Part shown: positions 8,213 through 15,640 of the stretch, piece after piece
Position numbering within the stretch: position 1 is the first letter of the stretch
How the letters are laid out: every line of letters starts with the position of its first letter
Source of the DNA: an uncultured beta proteobacterium
Lineage (GTDB): Bacteria; Pseudomonadota; Gammaproteobacteria; Burkholderiales; Burkholderiaceae_C
Assembly (NCBI GenBank): GCA_963750815.1
Contig: CAVVRS010000002.1
Span: forward strand, 381,442-445,441
Direction of reading: 5' to 3'
Length of the DNA stretch: 64,000 nt
The notes under the pieces: model-generated
The model's input: the letters and a program-made list of their open reading frames with translations, nothing else
Database searches by the model: none
Told to the model about the DNA's origin: nothing
Position numbers and translations under genes: made by a program

Positions 8213-8902
8213 ATGGCGAAAGTATTGATGAAAAAGACCAAACCTCGGTATGATCAAAATCATATGAACACAGGCTTTACTCAACTTCACCATGAACTGG
8301 CTGAACTGCTTCCCGCCAGCCTGCGCCCGGTTTGCGTCACTTCAAGCTATGCAAAAGGTGAGCGGTTGTTCGGGGTTGGCGAAAAACCGCGTTACATGTT
8401 CTTTATCGGCAGCGGTGAAGTGCTGCTGGAACGACTGGGCGTACAGGGTGAGTTCATCGTATTGCAGCGCACAAGATATGGCATCGTCAGCGAAGCGAGC
8501 CTTCAATCAGCACGTTATCACTGCGATTGCAAGGCCATTGCGCCATCCGAAATTACAGCGGTGCCGATTCGGAACATCGAAGCCGCTCTGGCGCAGGACC
8601 CTGCGTTTTCAGGTCGCTGGATTGGCATGCTGAACCGGGAGGTCAAGCGGCTCCGGTTGCAGTGCGAGCGGCTGTCCCTGTACAAAGTGCAAGACCGCCT
8701 GCTGCACTTTCTGGAAACCGAGGGACAGAAAGGAAAATATCCTTTGCGTTCTGGCTTGAAGTCATTGGCCGGGGAATTGGGCGTTACCCACGAGGCGCTT
8801 TACCGCTGTGTGTCTGCCATGGAAAAAGCGAATCTCCTGCAGCGCGATGGCGGGTATTTGACTACTCTGCCAACCACTGCAATAGCCCGGGCTACTCTTT
8901 GA
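8213..8902 (+). CDS. Crp/Fnr family transcriptional regulator
   Basis: cNMP-binding-like beta-roll (RYMFFIGSGEVLLER) and a C-terminal HTH (LKSLAGELGVTHEALYRCVSAMEKANLL). An alternative start at MNTGF is possible. Confidence 0.8.
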   Translation: MAKVLMKKTKPRYDQNHMNTGFTQLHHELAELLPASLRPVCVTSSYAKGERLFGVGEKPRYMFFIGSGEVLLERLGVQGEFIVLQRTRYGIVSEASLQSARYHCDCKAIAPSEITAVPIRNIEAALAQDPAFSGRWIGMLNREVKRLRLQCERLSLYKVQDRLLHFLETEGQKGKYPLRSGLKSLAGELGVTHEALYRCVSAMEKANLLQRDGGYLTTLPTTAIARATL

Positions 8903-10163
8903 TCACTACCTTGTTGCCAGACCCGAATTCGACGCTGGCCCGAAGGTAGCGCGACTTGATTCCTTTTTCCTTCAGGATGTCGTAGACCATTTCGGCCCTG
9001 GTACCGGTAGAACAATGAACTACCGCCAGCTTTCCAGCCGGAATTTCGGCGTAGCGGACTGCCATTTCCTCGGCCGGAATATTCACCGCACCGGGGAAAT
9101 GCGCCTTTGCGAATTCGTCTGCGGTCCTGGCATCAATGACAGCATGTGAAGCCGTAATGACGATTTCCTCAAACTCCTTGATGGATACTTCACCCTCAAC
9201 GAGTTTGCGCACGTAGTTGATTTTCGTTGGCGTCGGACCGACAAGCAGCTGGTTTCCAGCAGCTTGCCAGGCTTTGACACCACCTGGGAATACCGTGGCG
9301 TTGCGATATTCCCATTCCCGCGCCCACTCCATGGCACTGTCCAGATCCTGGTCTCTGTCGGCGTAGAAGACGATAGCGGCGCTGTGGGAGTCAGGAAACT
9401 GCTTTTCTGCACTGCCCATAACCGCTGCCGGGATATTTACTGCACGCGGGATGTAGCCCGCAGCGGCCTTTTCAGGGCTCCTGAGGTCAACCAGAACGAT
9501 GTTGCCGTTCTTGATGAAAGACAGGCTAGCCTCAGTCGCATAGTCGAGCTTCTTCCAGCCGGGTTCACCCTCCGGGTAGACGCGTACATCCTTGAAACCA
9601 AGCTTCACCGCAATGGCGGCTGATTTCGGACTCAGCATGCAAGACAACCCGCCGCAGTAGAACACCAGAGTTTTTGATTTGTCTGTCGGCAATAGCTTCT
9701 CACCCTCTTTTTCCAGTTCGTTGAGGGGGACAGACACCGCTTTCGGCAGGTGCCCCTGGATGTAGCGGCCAGCCGGACGCGAATCGAGCAGCACAAAATT
9801 CTCGCCTCCCTTGTTTACCAGCTCGTGCAGTTCTGCCGACGCAATGCGGGTCGCACCAGCCGGAAGTTGCGCAATAACTTTGGTAACAGTCCTGGCACGG
9901 TTTTCCGGGCCGACTTGAGAAAAATCAACCGTGACCACCTCATCAGGGATGATGTTTTGGGCGGACACTGCATTTTTGAACTGTGTCGCCGCATCGAATT
10001 TGAAAACCAGCACGCCTTTGTTTGCAACCTCGACCGCGATGGTGCTGGCCTGACCGGACACCGCCTTGACGCTTCCGGTTATTTCGTCGGCATTTGCTGC
10101 TTGTGCCAAGCCCAAGCCAAGGGCGATGGCCAGGGCAACACTCGTTAAGTGAAATTTCTTCAT
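8892..10163 (-). CDS. Periplasmic three-domain rhodanese (sulfurtransferase) protein
   Basis: Signal peptide MKKFHLTSVALAIALGLGLAQAANA. Rhodanese repeats 1 and 3 have active-site-like loops (FYCGGLSC and VHCSTGTRAE). The middle repeat has Asp where the catalytic Cys would be (FYADRDQD). Confidence 0.85.
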   Translation of the reverse strand: MKKFHLTSVALAIALGLGLAQAANADEITGSVKAVSGQASTIAVEVANKGVLVFKFDAATQFKNAVSAQNIIPDEVVTVDFSQVGPENRARTVTKVIAQLPAGATRIASAELHELVNKGGENFVLLDSRPAGRYIQGHLPKAVSVPLNELEKEGEKLLPTDKSKTLVFYCGGLSCMLSPKSAAIAVKLGFKDVRVYPEGEPGWKKLDYATEASLSFIKNGNIVLVDLRSPEKAAAGYIPRAVNIPAAVMGSAEKQFPDSHSAAIVFYADRDQDLDSAMEWAREWEYRNATVFPGGVKAWQAAGNQLLVGPTPTKINYVRKLVEGEVSIKEFEEIVITASHAVIDARTADEFAKAHFPGAVNIPAEEMAVRYAEIPAGKLAVVHCSTGTRAEMVYDILKEKGIKSRYLRASVEFGSGNKVVIKE

Positions 10164-10174
10164 GTTGTTTGTGC

Positions 10175-10495
10175 TCAGCAGCCGGCTGTCTTCTTGAAGG
10201 ATTTGCTGGTGTTTTTGCCGTCCTTGTCGAAACGGGCACGGATTTCGTCACCTTCAACAATGCGTTTATCCTTGAATTTGTCCAGGGTCAGATCATCGGT
10301 AACGGTCACAGTAACTGCCTCGCCGGTCTTGGCATCTTTCAAAATGGCGGTAGCGGATTTGCCGTCGGCTGCCAGTTTGATCTTGGTGACGGGACCGACC
10401 ATCTTGCCCTCGTCGGCGGCGGCGTGGCCCGCAAAAGTTGCACACGACACCGCAATTGCGGCAGTCAGGATAAGCGTTGAGAATTTCGATTTCAT
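10175..10495 (-). CDS. Small secreted protein ending in ...KKTAGC-COOH; function unknown
   Basis: Signal peptide MKSKFSTLILTAAIAVSCATFAGHAAA. AGGAG Shine-Dalgarno upstream. Lies 29 nt after the barrel gene and 11 nt before the rhodanese gene. The codon before TGA is TGC (Cys). Confidence 0.65.
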   Translation of the reverse strand: MKSKFSTLILTAAIAVSCATFAGHAAADEGKMVGPVTKIKLAADGKSATAILKDAKTGEAVTVTVTDDLTLDKFKDKRIVEGDEIRARFDKDGKNTSKSFKKTAGC

Positions 10496-10524
10496 TTTTA
10501 ACTCCTAAGAAAATATGTAGTGGT

Positions 10525-12327
10525 TCAGAACTTGACTTCAAATGTGGCGTAAACATTGGTAGCGTCTTCCAGCGGCGTCATCGTCATCATCTGACCATTG
10601 ACGCTATTGATCTCCACCGGTGCGCCAACCCAGTTGTTGCTGCCGGTGTACTTGAAGTTGTAGCGCTGAACACCAAGGCGAAAATAGGCTCGGCTGACAA
10701 ATGACGAGATCGGCATGCGATCGAGTTCCTGGATCATGTAGGCCTCATAGACATCACCACGTGTACCAACCTTCGATGTCCACATGTCGTCGGCGGCCGG
10801 GGCGAAGGTGATCCAGTCCTTGGAGCCATGGTTGTACTCAAAGCCAAGCTTGGTTCTGGATGGCAAGTCGTAGCGTATGCCGAGAGCAACCGCTGTTCCA
10901 GTCTTGCCAGTAGCAGCTTCGGGGCCAAAGAAAGAGCCCGTCATCAACCCCTGAAAGCCGAACTGTGCGGAGACATTGTTGTTCGGATGTGTGCGACTCA
11001 TGCCCCAGTCAGCAAACAGCTGCAGATCGCCGGGTCCAACTTTCTTGAACGTGCTCATGAAACCCAGACCGAGCCAGTCAATGTCGCCCAGATTGGTCCT
11101 GGCTCCGGTATTGCCGAAGTAGGTATTGTTCATGGTCGGTGCGTCAAAAATATTGATGCCACGGTTCCACTGAAACCAGACGCGCAGCGGATCGGTGTCA
11201 ATGGGTATCACCGCCAGACCAATCATGTCGGTATCGGCCAGCGAATTGCCTGGCGCGGCACTAAAGCCGCTCTCAAAGCCGCGGCCATAGCAAATTTTGG
11301 CGTAAGCCCCCGGCAGTGTGTCGAAGTCGGGGGCGTAGCCAACAGTCATACCGTCAAAAGCGTAGTCGACCAGCAACGAAGGCGTGCCACCATTACCAGG
11401 GCGCGGATTGTTCAGGCGCAAATTGCTCGGGGCACCACTGGTCGATGGGCGTCGTCCAACCGACAGCCAGACTTCCTTGTCGGCAATATTGCTCCAGGTG
11501 GCGTAGGCACGGTCGACGTTCAGGTAGCTGTTCGATGGCACGTGACTCAGTGTCCCGTCAAAGACGCCGACACGGTCAGCAAAGAACGGCGCGCTACCGG
11601 CATTGGTGACCGCTGCGTCGTTCTGCGCGCCAAACACTTTGTACATTGCCAAATGCGCGTTGACACTAACGTCTTGCGTCGCCTTGGCGCCAATATCCAG
11701 ACCAAATCGGTTGCTGTACAGGCTGTTGTTCTTCGGCTTGTAGGCCGGTACCGTAGCGGCAAAGGCACCCATCGCCCCGACCATGCCAGCATTCATTGGA
11801 TTGCTCAGGAATGCATTCGCCTGGTCGTAGGTTGCGACCCGGCCCATCGCCTGGGAGAACCCCATCAAACCGGACAGGGCTTGTCCGGTGGTCCAACCGG
11901 GGTTGAGCGACGAAGGCGCTGCGGGATTGGCGAAGAACTCGCTCTGCAGGGTATTTTGCGCATTGGCAAAGGTCGCATTGACGTCGGTGAAGGTTTTGCT
12001 TTGTCCTTCCAGATAGTCGTAGCGGAAGCGGTAGTCGCCGCCCACGGTCAACCACTTGCCGAGCGACTTGTCTTCCAGCTTCTTGACCTGGCCTTTGAGC
12101 TCATCCAGTGCCACGGCCTCAGACTTGCCAGCCACCGCCTTGACCTGCTCGGCTGTCTGAGCCGCCTTTTCCTCGTTTGCCTTGACCTGCTTTTTCAGGG
12201 CTTCAAGCTCGCGCGACATGGACTCGATTTTGTTCATCAGGTCGGCGTCCGCAGCATTGGCGGCGATCGGCAGCAGCAGGCTGGCGATCAGGGCAACCAA
12301 TAGTTTCTTCTTAAACATCTTGTCCAT
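10525..12327 (-). CDS. Outer-membrane beta-barrel protein with an N-terminal coiled coil (DUF3373-like by recollection)
   Basis: Signal peptide ...LLLPIAANA, then a ~70-aa heptad-like region (MNKIESMSRELEALKKQVKANEEKAAQ...VKKLEDK). A long Gly/Tyr/Asn/Phe-rich alternating region follows, and the protein ends in ...YATFEVKF, the terminal Phe being typical of OMPs. AGGAGA Shine-Dalgarno sits before the ATG at 12327. Confidence 0.7.
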   Translation of the reverse strand: MDKMFKKKLLVALIASLLLPIAANAADADLMNKIESMSRELEALKKQVKANEEKAAQTAEQVKAVAGKSEAVALDELKGQVKKLEDKSLGKWLTVGGDYRFRYDYLEGQSKTFTDVNATFANAQNTLQSEFFANPAAPSSLNPGWTTGQALSGLMGFSQAMGRVATYDQANAFLSNPMNAGMVGAMGAFAATVPAYKPKNNSLYSNRFGLDIGAKATQDVSVNAHLAMYKVFGAQNDAAVTNAGSAPFFADRVGVFDGTLSHVPSNSYLNVDRAYATWSNIADKEVWLSVGRRPSTSGAPSNLRLNNPRPGNGGTPSLLVDYAFDGMTVGYAPDFDTLPGAYAKICYGRGFESGFSAAPGNSLADTDMIGLAVIPIDTDPLRVWFQWNRGINIFDAPTMNNTYFGNTGARTNLGDIDWLGLGFMSTFKKVGPGDLQLFADWGMSRTHPNNNVSAQFGFQGLMTGSFFGPEAATGKTGTAVALGIRYDLPSRTKLGFEYNHGSKDWITFAPAADDMWTSKVGTRGDVYEAYMIQELDRMPISSFVSRAYFRLGVQRYNFKYTGSNNWVGAPVEINSVNGQMMTMTPLEDATNVYATFEVKF

Positions 12328-12371: not shown

Positions 12372-12992
12372 CTAACCGTGCTTGCCGTGCACGGCTTCGT
12401 CACCAAGGTCTTCCCAGCCGGTGATCATGGCCTTGACCTGTGACGTGAGCCTGTGGCCGGTGGTGGCCAGATAAAGGTGCGAGATCAGGAATGCGAGCAT
12501 CAGGAACGCGCCCAGCGTGTGGCCGGTGGCAATCCACTGCAATTGAAGTCTGCCCAGTCCCCATGCCGGCCAGTTGGCATAAAAAAGGTAGAGCCAGCCG
12601 GTAAACCATATCAACGGACTGAGAAGCGTCAGCACCGCCAGATAGGTCAGCCGCTGCAACGGGTTGTGTTTGTTGCTCAGACTGGGCCTGAACGGATGCA
12701 GCTCGTGTTTGAAGATTCCGGACGAATAGTATTTCGCGATTGCAACAACGTTATGCGTCGTCGGAATGTAGTGCCGCCATTCGCCAGTCGTGAGATGCCA
12801 GAAGATGGCGAAAATCCACAACCCGACCAGCGACCAGGCAGCGTTGGTGTGGTAGTTCACTGCCTTTTCGAATCCAAAGAGTTGATATGTGCCGTGGACC
12901 TCAAAGCCGGTCAGCAGCATGAAGATGATCAATACCGCCTGACACCAATGCCAGAAGCGTTCGAAGGGCTTGAAGAGATAGACGCGTGACAT
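12372..12992 (-). CDS. Membrane di-heme cytochrome b (cytochrome b561 / Ni-Fe hydrogenase b-subunit-like)
   Basis: Four predicted TM helices with conserved His residues (FWHWCQAV, FWHLTTGEW, TGHTLGAFLMLAFLISHLY). Start ATG at 12992 with GGAGA Shine-Dalgarno, 13 nt after the cytochrome c stop. Confidence 0.8.
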   Translation of the reverse strand: MSRVYLFKPFERFWHWCQAVLIIFMLLTGFEVHGTYQLFGFEKAVNYHTNAAWSLVGLWIFAIFWHLTTGEWRHYIPTTHNVVAIAKYYSSGIFKHELHPFRPSLSNKHNPLQRLTYLAVLTLLSPLIWFTGWLYLFYANWPAWGLGRLQLQWIATGHTLGAFLMLAFLISHLYLATTGHRLTSQVKAMITGWEDLGDEAVHGKHG

Positions 12993-13005: not shown

Positions 13006-14607
13006 TTAGCTGTTGCGTTTGCGCGCGATGACGCGGCCGATGCCGTGCCCGAAAGCAAAGAGCAGAGTTAGCATTGCCATAGCCCAGCCGCCAATTTCAA
13101 GCCACTGGGCGTGATCGCGGCTGCGCCCCGGCATGTAGACGCCGTCAATCTTGTCCAGGCGGCTGACTGCGGCGTGACACTCGACACAGCTCAGCGCTTT
13201 TTCCTTTGGAGCCACCATGTGGGTGATCGGCCACATGCTCTCGGTTTCAATGAAGTCAACCTTGCCGGAAAACTTGACGCCACCTGCCGCCATACCCGCA
13301 GTGACGGCTTTCTCCCAATCCAGGTTTTTCCAGAAGGCGGTACCGTCGCTACCTGCCAGATGGGTGATGACCAGCGACTTATTGACGGGATCGTATTGCT
13401 GCTTGCCGCGGAACAGTTTGATTGGCCAGATCATGGACTTGCCGTCACTGGCACTGCCTTCAAAGTGATTGATCTGCGTCGGCTTGTCACCCTTCTCTAT
13501 CTTGTCGCCAACCAGGGTGTACTTGTTGGTGCCGTTGAACCAGACGTAGTCGGGTTTGACATTTTCTTTCCAGACAAAGTTGCCCTTGATGGTCATGTAG
13601 GTGTCGTAGCCGTCCTCATCCTTGATAACCATCGGCTTGCCATCCTTGCCGAGCTTGCCGGCGGTGGACCAGTCCCACGACATCTTGGTCGGGACTCCGC
13701 CACGCGCAAAGGCCGGTATGTGGCAGGTCTGGCAAGCAATTTTTGCCGTGTGCTCATTGAGTCTGACGATCTGGTGCGGTGCTTGTCCATGGCAGGCCTG
13801 GCAGGTGTCCGGATTTGACTTGTTGGCCTCGCCGCGCATGTGAGCCGGCGCTTTGTCTCTGGCAGTGGGGGCATAACGGCTGCCAGAGACCTTGTGATCA
13901 TCGGTCTTATGGCAGGTGGCGCACGAAAAATTCAATCCTTTGGCGTCCATGTGAACGTCTAGCGCTTTATCGGGTGACTCAAGCGAAGTGTCAAGATCGC
14001 CATGCTTGACACCGTCGCCACCACCGCCGTTAAAGTGACAGGCGCCACAGGTTGTGCGCTTGGTCGGCCCCACCTTCTGGGCTATCTCCTTCAGGTTGAT
14101 GCCTCTGACGATCTTGCCAGAGCCAGCCGGGAACTCGGTGTCCTTGGTGACCGGCAGGCCGGCAAATCCGGAAGGTTTCGTGTACTTGCCGGTGTGGTCG
14201 TGACAAACCAGGCAGTCGACATTCTCTTCAACGCTGAAATCAAACTTGTCGTCGCGCCAGCCGTAACCAATGTGGCAACTATTGCAAGCCGCCTCATTGG
14301 ACCTCACCGAAGTGCAGAAATTGTTGACGATGTGCTTCTTACCCAGCACTTGCTTGGTATCCGGATTGACAAACTCCCATTTCCAGTGCTGCGTCTGGTG
14401 GACCTGTTTGGCAGCCTCGGTATGGCAGCTCAGGCAGGCCTTGGTCACCTCAGGGCCGGAGGCAAATTCACGATCAAGCTCCTTGAACTTGCTGTGATCG
14501 GCAGTTGATTTCAGCAACTTGACCGGAGCCGTCACGACCGTGGCCGGAGCCCCCGCGACAAAAAAAATGGCCACCATAGCGGCGGCCATCACATATCGAA
14601 TACGCAT
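13006..14607 (-). CDS. Octaheme c-type cytochrome, tetrathionate-reductase (OTR) family-like, with a C-terminal membrane anchor
   Basis: Eight CxxCH motifs (CLSCH, CNSCH, CLVCH, CGACH, CATCH, CQACH, CQTCH, CVECH). N-terminal signal/anchor, and a C-terminal hydrophobic helix WAMAMLTLLFAFGHGIG. AAGGAA Shine-Dalgarno before the ATG at 14607. Confidence 0.85.
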   Translation of the reverse strand: MRIRYVMAAAMVAIFFVAGAPATVVTAPVKLLKSTADHSKFKELDREFASGPEVTKACLSCHTEAAKQVHQTQHWKWEFVNPDTKQVLGKKHIVNNFCTSVRSNEAACNSCHIGYGWRDDKFDFSVEENVDCLVCHDHTGKYTKPSGFAGLPVTKDTEFPAGSGKIVRGINLKEIAQKVGPTKRTTCGACHFNGGGGDGVKHGDLDTSLESPDKALDVHMDAKGLNFSCATCHKTDDHKVSGSRYAPTARDKAPAHMRGEANKSNPDTCQACHGQAPHQIVRLNEHTAKIACQTCHIPAFARGGVPTKMSWDWSTAGKLGKDGKPMVIKDEDGYDTYMTIKGNFVWKENVKPDYVWFNGTNKYTLVGDKIEKGDKPTQINHFEGSASDGKSMIWPIKLFRGKQQYDPVNKSLVITHLAGSDGTAFWKNLDWEKAVTAGMAAGGVKFSGKVDFIETESMWPITHMVAPKEKALSCVECHAAVSRLDKIDGVYMPGRSRDHAQWLEIGGWAMAMLTLLFAFGHGIGRVIARKRNS

Positions 14608-14703: not shown

Positions 14704-14717
14704 CTGATTTATATCAA
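14704..14717. promoter_or_regulatory. FNR/CRP-family-type box upstream of the cytochrome operon
   Basis: CTGATTTATATCAA matches TTGAT-N4-ATCAA at 13 of 14 positions. It sits in an AT-rich stretch about 100 nt upstream of the octaheme cytochrome start. Confidence 0.4.
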
Positions 14718-14829: not shown

Positions 14830-15165
14830 TCAGAGACTTCCTTTGCTCTCCACCTGCGTGCATACCGCACGACAAAGCGCCGCGACCCGATCATCAATGA
14901 TTCGGTAGAGGATCTGAACGCCTTCACGGCGCTTGCCGAGCACGCCCGCTTTGTAAAGCGTGTTCAGGTGCTGCGACATATTAGGCTGGGTGGTATTTAT
15001 TTTGGTAAGCATATAGCTCACGTTTTGCTCGCCGTCACGCAGACAACTGATGATTTTCAACCGCATTGGCGCGGACATGATTTGAAACAGCTCGGCTGCC
15101 AATTCAAAAACTTCGTCTGGTCGGGCCAGTTCGGAGTGGGGTTCTTTTACGGAAAGCTTTTTCAT
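14830..15165 (-). CDS. ArsR/SmtB family transcriptional regulator (BigR/SqrR-like Cys arrangement)
   Basis: Winged-HTH core SAPMRLKIISCLRDGEQNVSYMLTKINTTQPNMSQHLNTLYKAGVL. Cys in helix 2 (ISCL) plus a C-terminal LCRAVC. Start at MKKLSV (15165). Confidence 0.85.
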   Translation of the reverse strand: MKKLSVKEPHSELARPDEVFELAAELFQIMSAPMRLKIISCLRDGEQNVSYMLTKINTTQPNMSQHLNTLYKAGVLGKRREGVQILYRIIDDRVAALCRAVCTQVESKGSL

Positions 15166-15265
15166 GGAAAGTTGATTTTCTGTGTCGATCCAGCGGCCAT
15201 GAGAATTATTGTGAAGATGCAATTGTGCACTCTGGAGGCCGCCGCCGCTCGCCGGCGACGGACAG

Positions 15266-15640
15266 CTACTCGTCCCGCTTTGCCAATGCCCCAAGTTTGA
15301 CCACCAGGTCCGCCACATACCGATCCACTACAGCGGGTGTGGTCGCATCCGACGTCTGGGCGCGTATCAAGCGCTCCAGCGTCTCCGCCTGAGGTGTTAC
15401 GGTGCCAAAAAAACGCGGCTGACCGGCTACGGCCAGCAACAGGGTTGGAAAATTTTCCACTTCCAGCGGATCCAGCAACTCGGCCTCATCTTCCACGTCA
15501 ATCCAGAGAAATTGCGCCCGGGGGAACAAAGCCCGCACTTGCATGAAGCGACTGCGATAGTCACGGCAAACGCCGCACCACTCGGCGCACAGACAGACGA
15601 CTAACACCGAAGCCGGTGACGCCAGAGGTTCAACATTCAT
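15266..15640 (-). CDS. Thioredoxin-family protein (WCGVC active site)
   Basis: LCAEWCGVCRDY redox motif and a thioredoxin-fold length of 124 aa. Confidence 0.8.
   Translation of the reverse strand: MNVEPLASPASVLVVCLCAEWCGVCRDYRSRFMQVRALFPRAQFLWIDVEDEAELLDPLEVENFPTLLLAVAGQPRFFGTVTPQAETLERLIRAQTSDATTPAVVDRYVADLVVKLGALAKRDE

What the first reader, a model, noticed from the sequence alone, without database searches (positions are those of the whole stretch)
10175..10495. Small periplasmic protein ending in ...KKTAGC-COOH: a possible SoxY-like swinging-arm carrier
Seen in sequence: the ORF has an AGGAG Shine-Dalgarno and a signal peptide. The mature part is about 80 aa and beta-rich. The only Cys in the mature protein, assuming signal-peptidase I cleavage after AGHA, is the very last residue, preceded by Gly.

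Established knowledge: SoxY carries sulfur intermediates covalently on a Cys in a C-terminal GGCGG peptide.

Inference: a C-terminal Gly-Cys next to rhodanese and an octaheme redox enzyme could act as a persulfide or polysulfide carrier arm. The N-terminal ~70 aa of the adjacent rhodanese protein (ITGSVKAVSGQASTIAVEV...VTVDF) has a similar beta-strand pattern and may be a related domain.
Basis: partly seen in the sequence, partly recalled or inferred. Interest (0 to 1): 0.6.

Follow-up and report, generated by a model that had tools for sequence, protein, structure and literature searches.

The report
Periplasmic OB-fold protein ending in cysteine
A small secreted protein that almost always ends in glycine-cysteine is encoded with an outer-membrane pore, a sulfur-transferase and a multi-haem reductase, and it is most likely an undescribed thiol carrier for sulfur respiration.

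Summary
Window 10175-10495 (-) encodes a 106-aa protein with a Shine-Dalgarno site and a signal-peptidase-I signal. The 79-aa mature part is beta-rich, and its only Cys is the last residue, after Gly.

- **Conservation:** 79 of 79 complete genomic copies end in (T/A)AGC plus a stop. So do 68 of 79 distant representatives whose tail aligns. The signal-peptide Cys18 is not conserved, so there is no lipobox.
- **Fold:** the predicted fold is an OB barrel with a four-residue basic tail. It is not SoxY, and no Pfam or NCBIfam family matches.
- **Context:** the gene always follows one DUF3373 porin subfamily. It usually sits with an Otr octahaem cytochrome, cytochrome b and rhodanese, and elsewhere with Otr-like cytochromes or PhsA-like molybdoenzymes.
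- **Parallel system:** Geobacteraceae ExtJ shows no detectable homology and has a different modelled barrel, yet it also ends in Gly-Cys. It lies beside a porin, a rhodanese and the polysulfide reductase MccSep.

Best reading (about 45%): a protein-thiol carrier of sulfane sulfur, or possibly selenium, that feeds a periplasmic reductase. No biochemistry supports this yet. The claimed kinship with the rhodanese N-terminal domain is not supported.

This scan noted the same operon type in another genome (e1-3025576) and read it the same way.

The parts
10175..10495 (-). Gene for the 106-aa secreted OB-fold protein ending in Gly-Cys (stop codon included)
   Evidence: ORF. 1820 homologue clusters. 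OB-fold model with mean pLDDT 80.5 and core about 92.
10415..10495 (-). Signal peptide, residues 1-27, cleaved after A-x-A before DEGK
   Evidence: 118 of 120 homologues have A-x-A before (D/E)EG(K/R). No lipobox. Cys18 is present in only 4 of 120.
10178..10189 (-). Codons for the conserved C-terminal tail Thr-Ala-Gly-Cys. Cys106 is TGC at 10178-10180.
   Evidence: In the curated alignment Gly105 is invariant and Cys106 is at least 90% conserved.
10502..10506 (-). Shine-Dalgarno AGGAG
   Evidence: Read directly from the sequence.
10525..12327 (-). DUF3373 outer-membrane barrel with an N-terminal coiled coil, the invariant upstream neighbour. The ATG start is used here; the longest ORF reaches 12372.
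   Evidence: - PF11853 match at 500 bits.
- Directly upstream of the small gene in 78 of 80 loci.
- Subfamily-specific pairing: 13 of 13 against 0 of 21.
11290..11292 (-). The only Cys of the DUF3373 protein. It is Cys361 counted from the 12372 start and sits in the motif CYGRGF.
   Evidence: Invariant in 36 of 36 subfamily members. Also present in 33 of 34 DUF3373 proteins of all subfamilies that were aligned.
8892..10163 (-). Secreted protein with three rhodanese domains and an extra N-terminal beta domain. The active-site loops are at Cys170/175 and Cys384; the middle domain lacks a Cys.
   Evidence: PF00581 matches three times. Loops read. A rhodanese follows the small gene in 46 of 80 loci.
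12372..12992 (-). Di-haem cytochrome b, PhsC-like quinol-oxidising subunit
   Evidence: PF01292, and NF011582 at 114 bits. Present in 59 of 80 loci.
13006..14607 (-). Otr-family octahaem cytochrome c with a C-terminal membrane anchor
   Evidence: - TIGR04315 match at 639 bits.
- E = 3e-117 to Shewanella OTR, PDB 1SP3.
- Eight CxxCH motifs plus the conserved extra Cys113.
14704..14717 (+). FNR/CRP-like box CTGATTTATATCAA, about 100 nt upstream of the Otr start
   Evidence: There are 3 one-mismatch matches in the window against 1.5 expected, so only its position speaks for it.

Best explanation
The gene encodes a periplasmic OB-fold protein of about 8.5 kDa. Its working part is the thiol of the last residue, carried on a short lysine-rich tail (F-K-K-T-A-G-C-COOH).

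**Proposed mechanism (inferred).**
1. A sulfur substrate such as polysulfide, elemental sulfur or thiosulfate enters through the DUF3373 outer-membrane channel.
2. The rhodanese loads sulfane sulfur onto Cys106, or the substrate reacts with Cys106 directly. This gives a protein persulfide or polysulfide.
3. The small protein docks on the inner-membrane-anchored Otr octahaem cytochrome.
4. Otr draws electrons from quinol through the PhsC-like cytochrome b and reduces the bound sulfur to sulfide. The free thiol is regenerated.

The protein would thus be the reductive, periplasmic counterpart of carriers such as SoxY or DsrC, built on a different fold. Selenium bound as a selenotrisulfide could use the same route.

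**Shown here:** the gene, its export signal, the fold model, the conservation of the Cys and the gene associations.

**Inferred:** every chemical step.
For: 1. **The terminal Gly-Cys is nearly universal.** It holds down to about 35% identity, while Cys is otherwise absent from most mature sequences. A minority class that ends in ...GE instead carries a Cys at position 97, nine residues upstream. That position is a conserved Ser in the canonical proteins. So a thiol in the C-terminal region is what is kept.

2. **15 of the 68 Cys-terminal representatives have a second Cys at position 87** on the neighbouring strand. This recalls two-Cys carriers such as DsrC.

3. **Company in the window's operon type.** In 80 genome loci the gene is preceded by DUF3373 in 78. 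Otr is present in 61, cytochrome b in 59 and rhodanese in 46.

4. **Company elsewhere.**
- The gene abuts, or overlaps by 7 nt, distant Otr-like octahaem cytochromes (L049, L193).
- A copy of the Cys97 variant class (ends ...GE) follows a pentahaem cytochrome (L195).
- It lies in clusters with PhsA-like molybdoenzyme, FeS and NrfD subunits (L066, L051).

5. **Genome-level co-occurrence.** In one sample of 301 Desulfobacterota genomes, the 11 genomes with a strong hit are exactly the 11 that carry this DUF3373 subfamily.

6. **Independent parallel in Geobacteraceae.**
- ExtJ (NF040942) also ends in Gly-Cys in 11 of 11 members.
- ExtJ shows no detectable homology to the window's family (hhalign probability about 2% for the mature parts).
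- Its model is a different six-stranded barrel with a disordered tail.
- It sits after a porin, next to a rhodanese and next to ExtKL/MccSep. MccSep was shown in 2026 to be a polysulfide reductase essential for S0 respiration (PMC13510729; PMC5877670; PMC6148476).
- ExtH-type rhodaneses in those clusters also end in Gly-Cys, 4 of 4 seen.

7. **No metal-site signature.** The alignment has no conserved His, Met or Trp.
Against: - There is no biochemical evidence for any adduct.
- The tail beyond the last strand is only four residues and is modelled with moderate confidence (pLDDT about 76). It is much shorter than the arms of SoxY or DsrC. It may not reach a buried haem site unless the OB body docks closely.
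- A distant subgroup (45-50% identity, still ending RKTAGC) is encoded alone beside pheT or metG, with no sulfur genes within 8 kb. Operon linkage is therefore not universal.
- About 11 of 79 tail-aligned representatives lack a Cys at the aligned last position. This count includes two alignment artefacts, two long fused proteins without it (P0213, P0226) and two sequences with no Cys at all.
- The physiological substrate of Otr is unknown. In vitro the Shewanella enzyme reduces tetrathionate, nitrite and hydroxylamine (my own knowledge, not tested here).
Confidence: 0.45

Rival explanations
1. The protein is an accessory subunit of the porin. Cys106 forms an intermolecular disulfide with the single invariant Cys of the DUF3373 barrel. 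The OB protein would be tethered as a plug, gate or periplasmic adaptor, so the Cys would be structural rather than a cargo site.
For: - The DUF3373 gene is directly upstream in 78 of 80 loci.
- Pairing is subfamily-specific, 13 of 13 against 0 of 21.
- Genome-level co-occurrence is perfect, 11 of 11.
- Each protein has exactly one conserved Cys.
Against: - The barrel's Cys (CYGxGF) is conserved in all DUF3373 subfamilies, including the 21 with no small-protein gene nearby. It does not co-vary with the partner.
- Copies of the small gene lie next to Otr-like or pentahaem cytochromes without any DUF3373 (L060, L193, L195).
- The stand-alone subgroup also exists.
- ExtJ keeps Gly-Cys beside an unrelated porin family, Porin_O_P.
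Confidence: 0.2
2. The protein is a periplasmic chaperone or buffer for a soft metal or metalloid. It would bind Cu(I), Ag(I), or Se/Te species through the terminal thiolate, like the small-barrel chaperones CusF and SilF. It would protect the cytochrome module or feed it.
For: - The model aligns with SilF (Z 8.4) and with the SilB C-terminal domain (Z 8.3).
- Geobacter extI mutants are defective in selenite and tellurite reduction (PMC5877670).
- NCBIfam names ExtJ a selenite/tellurite reduction operon protein.
Against: - No conserved His, Met or Trp ligands.
- A single thiol is a poor metal site unless the protein dimerises.
- The structural similarity is generic OB. SSB and PriB score higher, at Z 10-11.
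- The neighbours are sulfur-redox enzymes, not metal efflux genes.
Confidence: 0.1
3. The protein is a trans-acting redox thiol for the enzymes rather than a cargo carrier. Cys106 would act as a resolving cysteine that clears persulfide or mixed-disulfide intermediates on the rhodanese or on Otr Cys113. Alternatively it would transiently ligate a haem.
For: - Otr keeps an extra Cys113 (NNFC) that is shared with Shewanella OTR.
- MccSep catalysis uses a Cys-ligated haem plus selenocysteine (PMC13510729, abstract).
- Two-Cys variants of the small protein exist.
- The gene abuts Otr-like genes.
Against: - On present data this reading cannot be told apart from the carrier model.
- No contact model is available.
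- The stand-alone subgroup argues for a more general role.
Confidence: 0.15
4. The terminal Cys has no function. It would be a chance or hitch-hiking feature, or an annotation artefact with a wrong stop or frame.
For: None found. The only point in this direction is that longer spurious ORFs overlap the gene on the opposite strand.
Against: - The same end is followed by all three stop codons in 79 of 79 loci.
- It is conserved down to 35% identity.
- The background rate of Gly-Cys ends is 0.2%.
- The same ending has arisen in a second, unrelated family, ExtJ.
Confidence: 0.02

Closest known systems
ExtJ of Geobacter sulfurreducens (GSU2938; NCBIfam NF040942), function unknown
   Same: - Small secreted beta-barrel protein of about 70-80 mature residues ending in Gly-Cys, 11 of 11 members.
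- Encoded just downstream of an outer-membrane porin gene; in several clusters a small lipoprotein gene lies between them.
- Sits in a cluster with a rhodanese and a periplasmic multihaem reductase (PMC6148476).
   Different: - The window's protein scores 9.5 bits against a cut-off of 52.5.
- The mature domains show no profile similarity (probability about 2%).
- The models differ: OB fold against a six-stranded riboflavin-synthase-like barrel with a longer disordered tail.
- The porin is Porin_O_P rather than DUF3373.
- The reductase is the pentahaem selenoprotein MccSep rather than Otr.
SoxY, the sulfur carrier of the Sox thiosulfate-oxidising system
   Same: - Periplasmic.
- A single functional Cys next to Gly near the C-terminus.
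- Proposed to present covalently bound sulfur to partner enzymes.
   Different: - SoxY ends in GGCGG, has an immunoglobulin-like sandwich fold, pairs with SoxZ and works in oxidation (my own knowledge).
- Here the Cys is the very last residue and the fold is OB.
- There is no SoxZ and no PF13501 hit.
- The context is reductive: quinol, cytochrome b, then Otr.
DsrC / TusE
   Same: - A conserved Cys at or next to the C-terminus.
- Many homologues here have a second Cys about 19 residues upstream. This recalls the CysB-X10-CysA pair of DsrC, which carries sulfur as a trisulfide to a membrane reductase complex.
   Different: - DsrC is cytoplasmic and helical and has a longer arm (my own knowledge).
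- There is no sequence or fold relation.
- The window's own protein has only one mature Cys.
CcmE haem chaperone
   Same: - Periplasmic OB-fold body. The Desulfovibrio CcmE OB domain aligns at Z 9.1.
- A flexible C-terminal tail whose single nucleophilic residue carries cargo covalently.
   Different: - CcmE is membrane-anchored and uses His (Cys in some lineages) in an HxxxY motif to carry haem (my own knowledge).
- There is no PF03100 hit.
- The signal peptide here is cleavable.
- The tail here is far shorter.
Sud / SbdP-type periplasmic sulfurtransferases that feed polysulfide reductases
   Same: The proposed role is the same: a soluble periplasmic protein thiol that hands sulfane sulfur to a membrane-bound reductase. 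The link with PhsA/PsrA-like enzymes in L066, L051 and L104 fits this.
   Different: Those proteins are rhodanese-fold enzymes with an active-site loop Cys. This one is an OB fold with a terminal Cys, and it is encoded in addition to a rhodanese.

Membership tests
SoxY | Match to the SoxY sequence family (Pfam PF13501) | tested here: not met
   No hit at E <= 0.1 for the window's protein or for any of 59 family members.
SoxY | C-terminal GGCGG carrier motif | tested here: not met
   The family ends in (K/R)(K/T)(A/G)GC-COOH, with Cys as the last residue.
SoxY | Immunoglobulin-like beta-sandwich fold | tested here: inconclusive
   The model has the strand-strand-strand-helix-strand-strand topology of an OB fold. 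All top matches are OB domains, with SSB at Z 11.1.
SoxY | Adjacent SoxZ partner gene and Sox enzymes | tested here: not met
   The neighbours are DUF3373, rhodanese, cytochrome b and Otr.
SoxY | Covalent sulfur adduct on the Cys | not testable with these tools
   Needs mass spectrometry of the purified protein.
ExtJ (NF040942) | HMM score above the curated cut-off of 52.5 bits | tested here: not met
   9.5 bits, E = 1.3.
ExtJ (NF040942) | Profile-profile similarity of the mature domains | tested here: not met
   hhalign probability is 1-2% once signal peptides are removed. The 86% obtained with full-length sequences came from the signal peptides.
ExtJ (NF040942) | Terminal Gly-Cys, and a gene position after a porin and beside a rhodanese and a multihaem reductase | tested here: met
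   This is a functional or architectural likeness, not evidence of common descent.
OB-fold superfamily | Five-stranded barrel with a helix between strands 3 and 4 | tested here: met
   - AlphaFold2 model with core pLDDT about 92.
- VIA-align Z 11.1, rmsd 2.2 A over 81 residues to an SSB.
- Foldseek TM 0.5-0.6 to LysRS, SSB and Stn1 OB domains.
- This rests on a prediction, not on a solved structure.
CcmE | PF03100 match, N-terminal membrane anchor, HxxxY haem-binding tail | tested here: not met
   No Pfam hit. The signal peptide is cleavable at A-x-A. The tail is KKTAGC.
Bacterial lipoprotein | Lipobox [LVI][ASTVI][GAS]C at the end of the signal peptide | tested here: not met
   0 of 120 homologues have a lipobox. 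Cys18 is present in only 4 of 120.

The most novel reading that the evidence does not exclude
The operon encodes a cysteine bucket-brigade across the cell envelope. It would be a sulfur-atom counterpart of the porin-cytochrome electron conduits.

In this reading, insoluble or polymeric sulfur is picked up at the outer-membrane barrel, whose one invariant Cys lies in the motif CYGRGF. It is then passed as a persulfide to the terminal Cys of the OB protein (or of ExtJ and ExtH in Geobacter). From there it goes to the rhodanese and finally to the multihaem reductase.

Two unrelated small barrels would then have converged on a Gly-Cys end because that end must thread into a channel or an active site.
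Probability: 0.12. Interest if true: 0.9.

Novelty: new variant of a known kind. Interest (0 to 1): 0.65.

Why it matters
- **Otr's role is open.** Otr-family octahaem cytochromes have had a crystal structure for about twenty years, but their physiological role is not settled.
- **Elemental-sulfur respiration is only now being worked out.** Its molecular basis in Geobacter was clarified in 2026 (PMC13510729).
- **A conserved partner gives a direct test.** A Cys-terminated partner protein, found in at least 1800 sequence clusters and mirrored by ExtJ, suggests that the true substrate of these reductases may be a protein-bound persulfide rather than a free ion.
- **The experiments are short.** The hypothesis can be checked with mass spectrometry, C-to-S mutants and reductase assays using the loaded carrier.
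- **Two further gains.** It defines an uncurated protein family. It also points to an unremarked shared feature, Gly-Cys ends on ExtJ and on ExtH-type rhodaneses.

Tried and rejected
1. **Complex prediction.** The mature small protein was folded with mature DUF3373, using alignments A1 and A5. Scores were 0.36, 0.08 and 0.24 against a mark of 0.32, so there is no verdict. This is not used as evidence either way.

2. **Homology to ExtJ.** The full-length hhalign probability of 86% came from the signal peptides. The mature parts give about 2%.

3. **Homology to the rhodanese N-terminal domain.** hhalign probability is 2%. The whole-genome profile hit is only E = 0.48. The NF040942 hit to the rhodanese N-terminus (E = 6e-4) covers mostly the signal peptide.

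4. **Selenocysteine variants (...AG-TGA).** None seen. All three stop codons follow the Cys.

5. **Tso selenoprotein system.** Only its rhodanese domain matches. The other Tso components are unrelated.

6. **Co-variation of the DUF3373 Cys with the small gene.** Rejected, because that Cys is family-wide.

7. **Fusions as Rosetta stones.**
- P0214 is a frameshift artefact.
- P0213 and P0226 carry the OB domain before long regions with no Pfam match.

8. **Searches that found nothing.**
- The look-up of encoding contigs on P0188 and P0179 gave only short contigs.
- The PDB sequence search with the family profile found nothing.

9. The 'atlas' fold library gave no answer.

10. **First locus search.** The search for related loci with the wide alignment failed for lack of a conserved stretch. 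It was repeated with a narrower alignment.

Full report
**1. The observation**

The minus-strand ORF at 10175-10495 encodes 106 residues ending ...KNTSKSFKKTAGC, followed by TGA. AGGAG lies at 10502-10506. Residues 1-27 form a typical Sec signal.

In 118 of 120 close homologues an A-x-A triplet directly precedes (D/E)EG(K/R). The mature protein therefore starts at Asp28 and has 79 residues. Cys18 in the signal peptide occurs in only 4 of 120 homologues and none has a lipobox, so the lipoprotein alternative is excluded. The only mature Cys is the last residue.

Two longer ORFs overlap the gene on the opposite strand (10094-10480 and 10149-10508). My own crude longest-ORF gene caller dropped the real gene because of them.

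**2. Conservation**

The family is large and has no curated name.
- There are 1820 clusters at 90% identity, all labelled 'hypothetical'.
- There are 113 representatives at 50% identity in a library of 1.8 billion proteins.
- No Pfam or NCBIfam model reaches threshold for any of 59 members.

The terminal Gly-Cys is the most conserved feature.
- 117 of 120 close homologues end in KKTAGC.
- All 79 complete copies in 80 genome loci end in (T/A)AGC, followed by TGA, TAA or TAG.
- Among the 112 fetched representatives, 33 are fragments or frameshifts whose tail does not align.
- Of the other 79, 68 have Cys at the last aligned position, 63 of them as the final residue.
- 15 of these 68 also carry a second Cys at position 87, on the neighbouring strand.
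- Among those that lack the terminal Cys, one small class ends in ...GE and has a Cys at position 97. That position is a conserved Ser in the canonical proteins.
- In the window's own genome only 0.2% of crude ORFs end in Gly-Cys.

**3. Fold**

An AlphaFold2 model built on 59 sequences has mean pLDDT 80.5 and a core near 92. It shows strands 29-41, 48-53 and 60-65, a helix at 68-75, then strands 84-90 and 96-102. This is the OB topology.
- Foldseek finds the OB domains of LysRS, SSB, Stn1 and Teb1.
- VIA-align gives Z 11.1 to an SSB, Z 9.1 to the CcmE OB domain and Z 8.4 to SilF.
- The four residues after the last strand are unstructured and have pLDDT about 76.
- The tail region is basic: five Lys in the last 13 residues.
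- The most conserved internal stretch is the helix region, DDLTLDKFKDKRI-x-GDEIR. I read this as a likely docking surface. That is an inference.

The protein is therefore not a SoxY relative. Its short tail is an exposed peptide rather than a long arm.

**4. Genomic company**

In the window the gene is the fourth of five tightly spaced minus-strand genes.
- Otr-family octahaem cytochrome: TIGR04315 at 639 bits, and E = 3e-117 to Shewanella OTR (PDB 1SP3), with a C-terminal anchor.
- PhsC-like cytochrome b.
- DUF3373 outer-membrane barrel with an N-terminal coiled coil.
- The small protein.
- A secreted protein with three rhodanese domains.

In 80 loci from species-representative genomes, DUF3373 lies directly upstream in 78. 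These genomes are mostly Burkholderiales and Rhodocyclales, with some Geobacterales. Otr is present in 61 loci, cytochrome b in 59 and a rhodanese in 46. The rhodanese comes in three architectures.

The pairing is specific to one DUF3373 subfamily.
- All 13 barrels that score above 575 bits against this subfamily's profile have the small gene next to them.
- None of 21 barrels from other subfamilies does.
- In one sample of 301 Desulfobacterota genomes, the 11 with a strong small-protein hit are exactly the 11 with that barrel subfamily.
- DUF3373 is rare in Pseudomonadota, at 5 of 401 sampled genomes. It was not found in 12 genomes of the window's own family, so the distribution is patchy.

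The reductase partner varies.
- A distant Otr-like octahaem gene abuts or overlaps the small gene in L049 and L193.
- A pentahaem cytochrome precedes it in L195. That copy belongs to the Cys97 variant class that ends ...GE.
- PhsA-like molybdoenzyme, FeS and NrfD genes follow in L066 and L051.
- L060 has Otr, cytochrome b and the small gene without a barrel.

A more distant subgroup from metagenomes, still ending RKTAGC, stands alone beside pheT or metG, with two paralogues per contig.

**5. The Geobacter parallel**

The rhodanese N-terminus gave a weak hit to NCBIfam ExtJ, which led me to the extHIJKL cluster. That cluster encodes a rhodanese lipoprotein, a porin, a small periplasmic protein of unknown function, and ExtKL (PMC6148476, PMC5877670). 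ExtKL is now characterised as MccSep, a pentahaem selenoprotein polysulfide reductase essential for S0 respiration (PMC13510729).
- I retrieved 11 ExtJ-family sequences from 10 Geobacteraceae genomes. Seven of those genomes hold a match above the curated cut-off. All 11 sequences end in Gly-Cys.
- With signal peptides removed, ExtJ and the window's family show no profile similarity (probability about 2%).
- The ExtJ model is a six-stranded barrel. Its best match is the riboflavin-synthase N-domain at Z 9.5, and its C-terminal tail is disordered.
- ExtI belongs to Porin_O_P, not DUF3373.
- The four ExtH-type rhodaneses I could read also end in Gly-Cys (L103, L105, L180, L194).
- One ExtJ paralogue sits directly upstream of a PhsA-like enzyme (L104).

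Two apparently unrelated small barrels thus share the same ending and the same kind of neighbours. This is the strongest argument that the terminal thiol is the functional element. None of the three papers read here mentions the ExtJ terminal Cys.

**6. Mechanism and rivals**

I favour a protein-thiol carrier at about 45%. In this model Cys106 takes sulfane sulfur from the rhodanese or directly from the substrate. It presents that sulfur to the membrane-anchored Otr, which is fed by quinol through cytochrome b.

Against this reading:
- The tail is short.
- A stand-alone subgroup exists.
- There is no biochemistry at all.

The main rival, at about 20%, is a disulfide tether to the barrel's single Cys. 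That Cys is conserved in every DUF3373 subfamily, whether or not the small gene is present. The small gene also occurs beside cytochromes without a barrel. Both points weaken the rival.

A trans-acting redox thiol for Otr or the rhodanese (about 15%) cannot be separated from the carrier model on present data. A metal or metalloid chaperone (about 10%) lacks a ligand signature. A chance feature is excluded.

**7. Novelty and scoring**

Cysteine-arm sulfur carriers are a known kind. An OB-fold, periplasmic, reductive version paired with Otr and a porin has not been described in the papers I searched. The Gly-Cys ends of ExtJ and ExtH are not remarked on in those papers either. I therefore rate it a new variant of a known kind, with interest 0.65.

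This scan had already noted the same operon type in another genome and read it as a cysteine carrier (e1-3025576). That agrees with my reading but is not independent evidence.

Noticed in passing
window 11290-11292 (-); also L142-L175: The DUF3373 outer-membrane protein has a single Cys in the motif CYG(R/Q/L)GF. It is invariant in 36 of 36 close homologues. It is also present in 33 of 34 DUF3373 proteins of all subfamilies from two phyla. An invariant lone Cys is unusual for an outer-membrane barrel.
   Followed up: partly
L103:9928-11325 (-), L105:2239-4179 (+), L180:3024-4328 (+), L194:4385-6013 (-): ExtH-type rhodanese proteins of Geobacteraceae ext clusters end in ...GSGC, ...GGGC, ...PSGC and ...ASGC. 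These are the same Gly-Cys ending as ExtJ. Only four were examined.
   Followed up: partly
L007, L010, L012, L013, L015 and about 30 other loci, in the gene after the small gene: Three rhodanese architectures follow the small gene.
- Type A (about 420 aa) has an N-terminal beta domain, as in the window.
- Type B (about 350 aa) ends in x-C-(T/S)-I-K-E, with a conserved Cys five residues from the end.
- Type C (about 460 aa) has a CxxCH haem motif fused in front of the rhodanese domains (L051, L054, L066, L067, L077).
   Followed up: no
L104:7442-7768 (-) and L104:5182-7374 (-): An ExtJ paralogue ending in ...VVAGC lies directly upstream of a Tat-exported PhsA-like molybdopterin oxidoreductase (541 bits to NF012032, below its cut-off). 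A two-component sigma-54 regulator pair lies upstream of it.
   Followed up: partly
L176:605-943 (-), L177:706-999 (-), L178:5381-5719 (+), L179:5781-6095 (+): A conserved gene for a protein of about 100-112 aa lies between the ExtI-like porin gene and extJ. The N-terminus looks like a lipoprotein (...TCQADSLVIT) and the protein ends in NAKPIPD. The papers I read do not name it in the ext cluster.
   Followed up: no
L108-L131 (metagenome contigs): A distant subgroup of the family (45-50% identity, ending RKTAGC) is encoded alone beside pheT or metG. It occurs as two paralogues about 100 kb apart on the same long contigs. The organisms were not identified.
   Followed up: partly
window 14704-14717: An FNR/CRP-like box, CTGATTTATATCAA, lies about 100 nt upstream of the Otr start. 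A Crp/Fnr-family gene (8213-8902, +) converges on the other end of the operon. The window holds 3 one-mismatch matches against 1.5 expected, so the motif alone is not significant.
   Followed up: partly
window 14830-15640 (-): An ArsR-family regulator and a thioredoxin gene lie just upstream of the operon on the same strand (Pfam HTH_5 and Thioredoxin). A persulfide-sensing BigR/SqrR-type role was not tested.
   Followed up: no
window 10094-10480 (+) and 10149-10508 (+): Two opposite-strand ORFs of 128 and 119 aa are longer than the real 106-aa gene and cover it completely. Gene callers based on the longest ORF can miss the real gene.
   Followed up: yes
P0213 and P0226 (protein ids): In two long proteins (422 and 466 aa) the OB domain sits at the N-terminus and continues as ...KTSGE / ...KTDGS, without the Cys. 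It is followed by Cys-rich or low-complexity regions with no Pfam match.
   Followed up: partly
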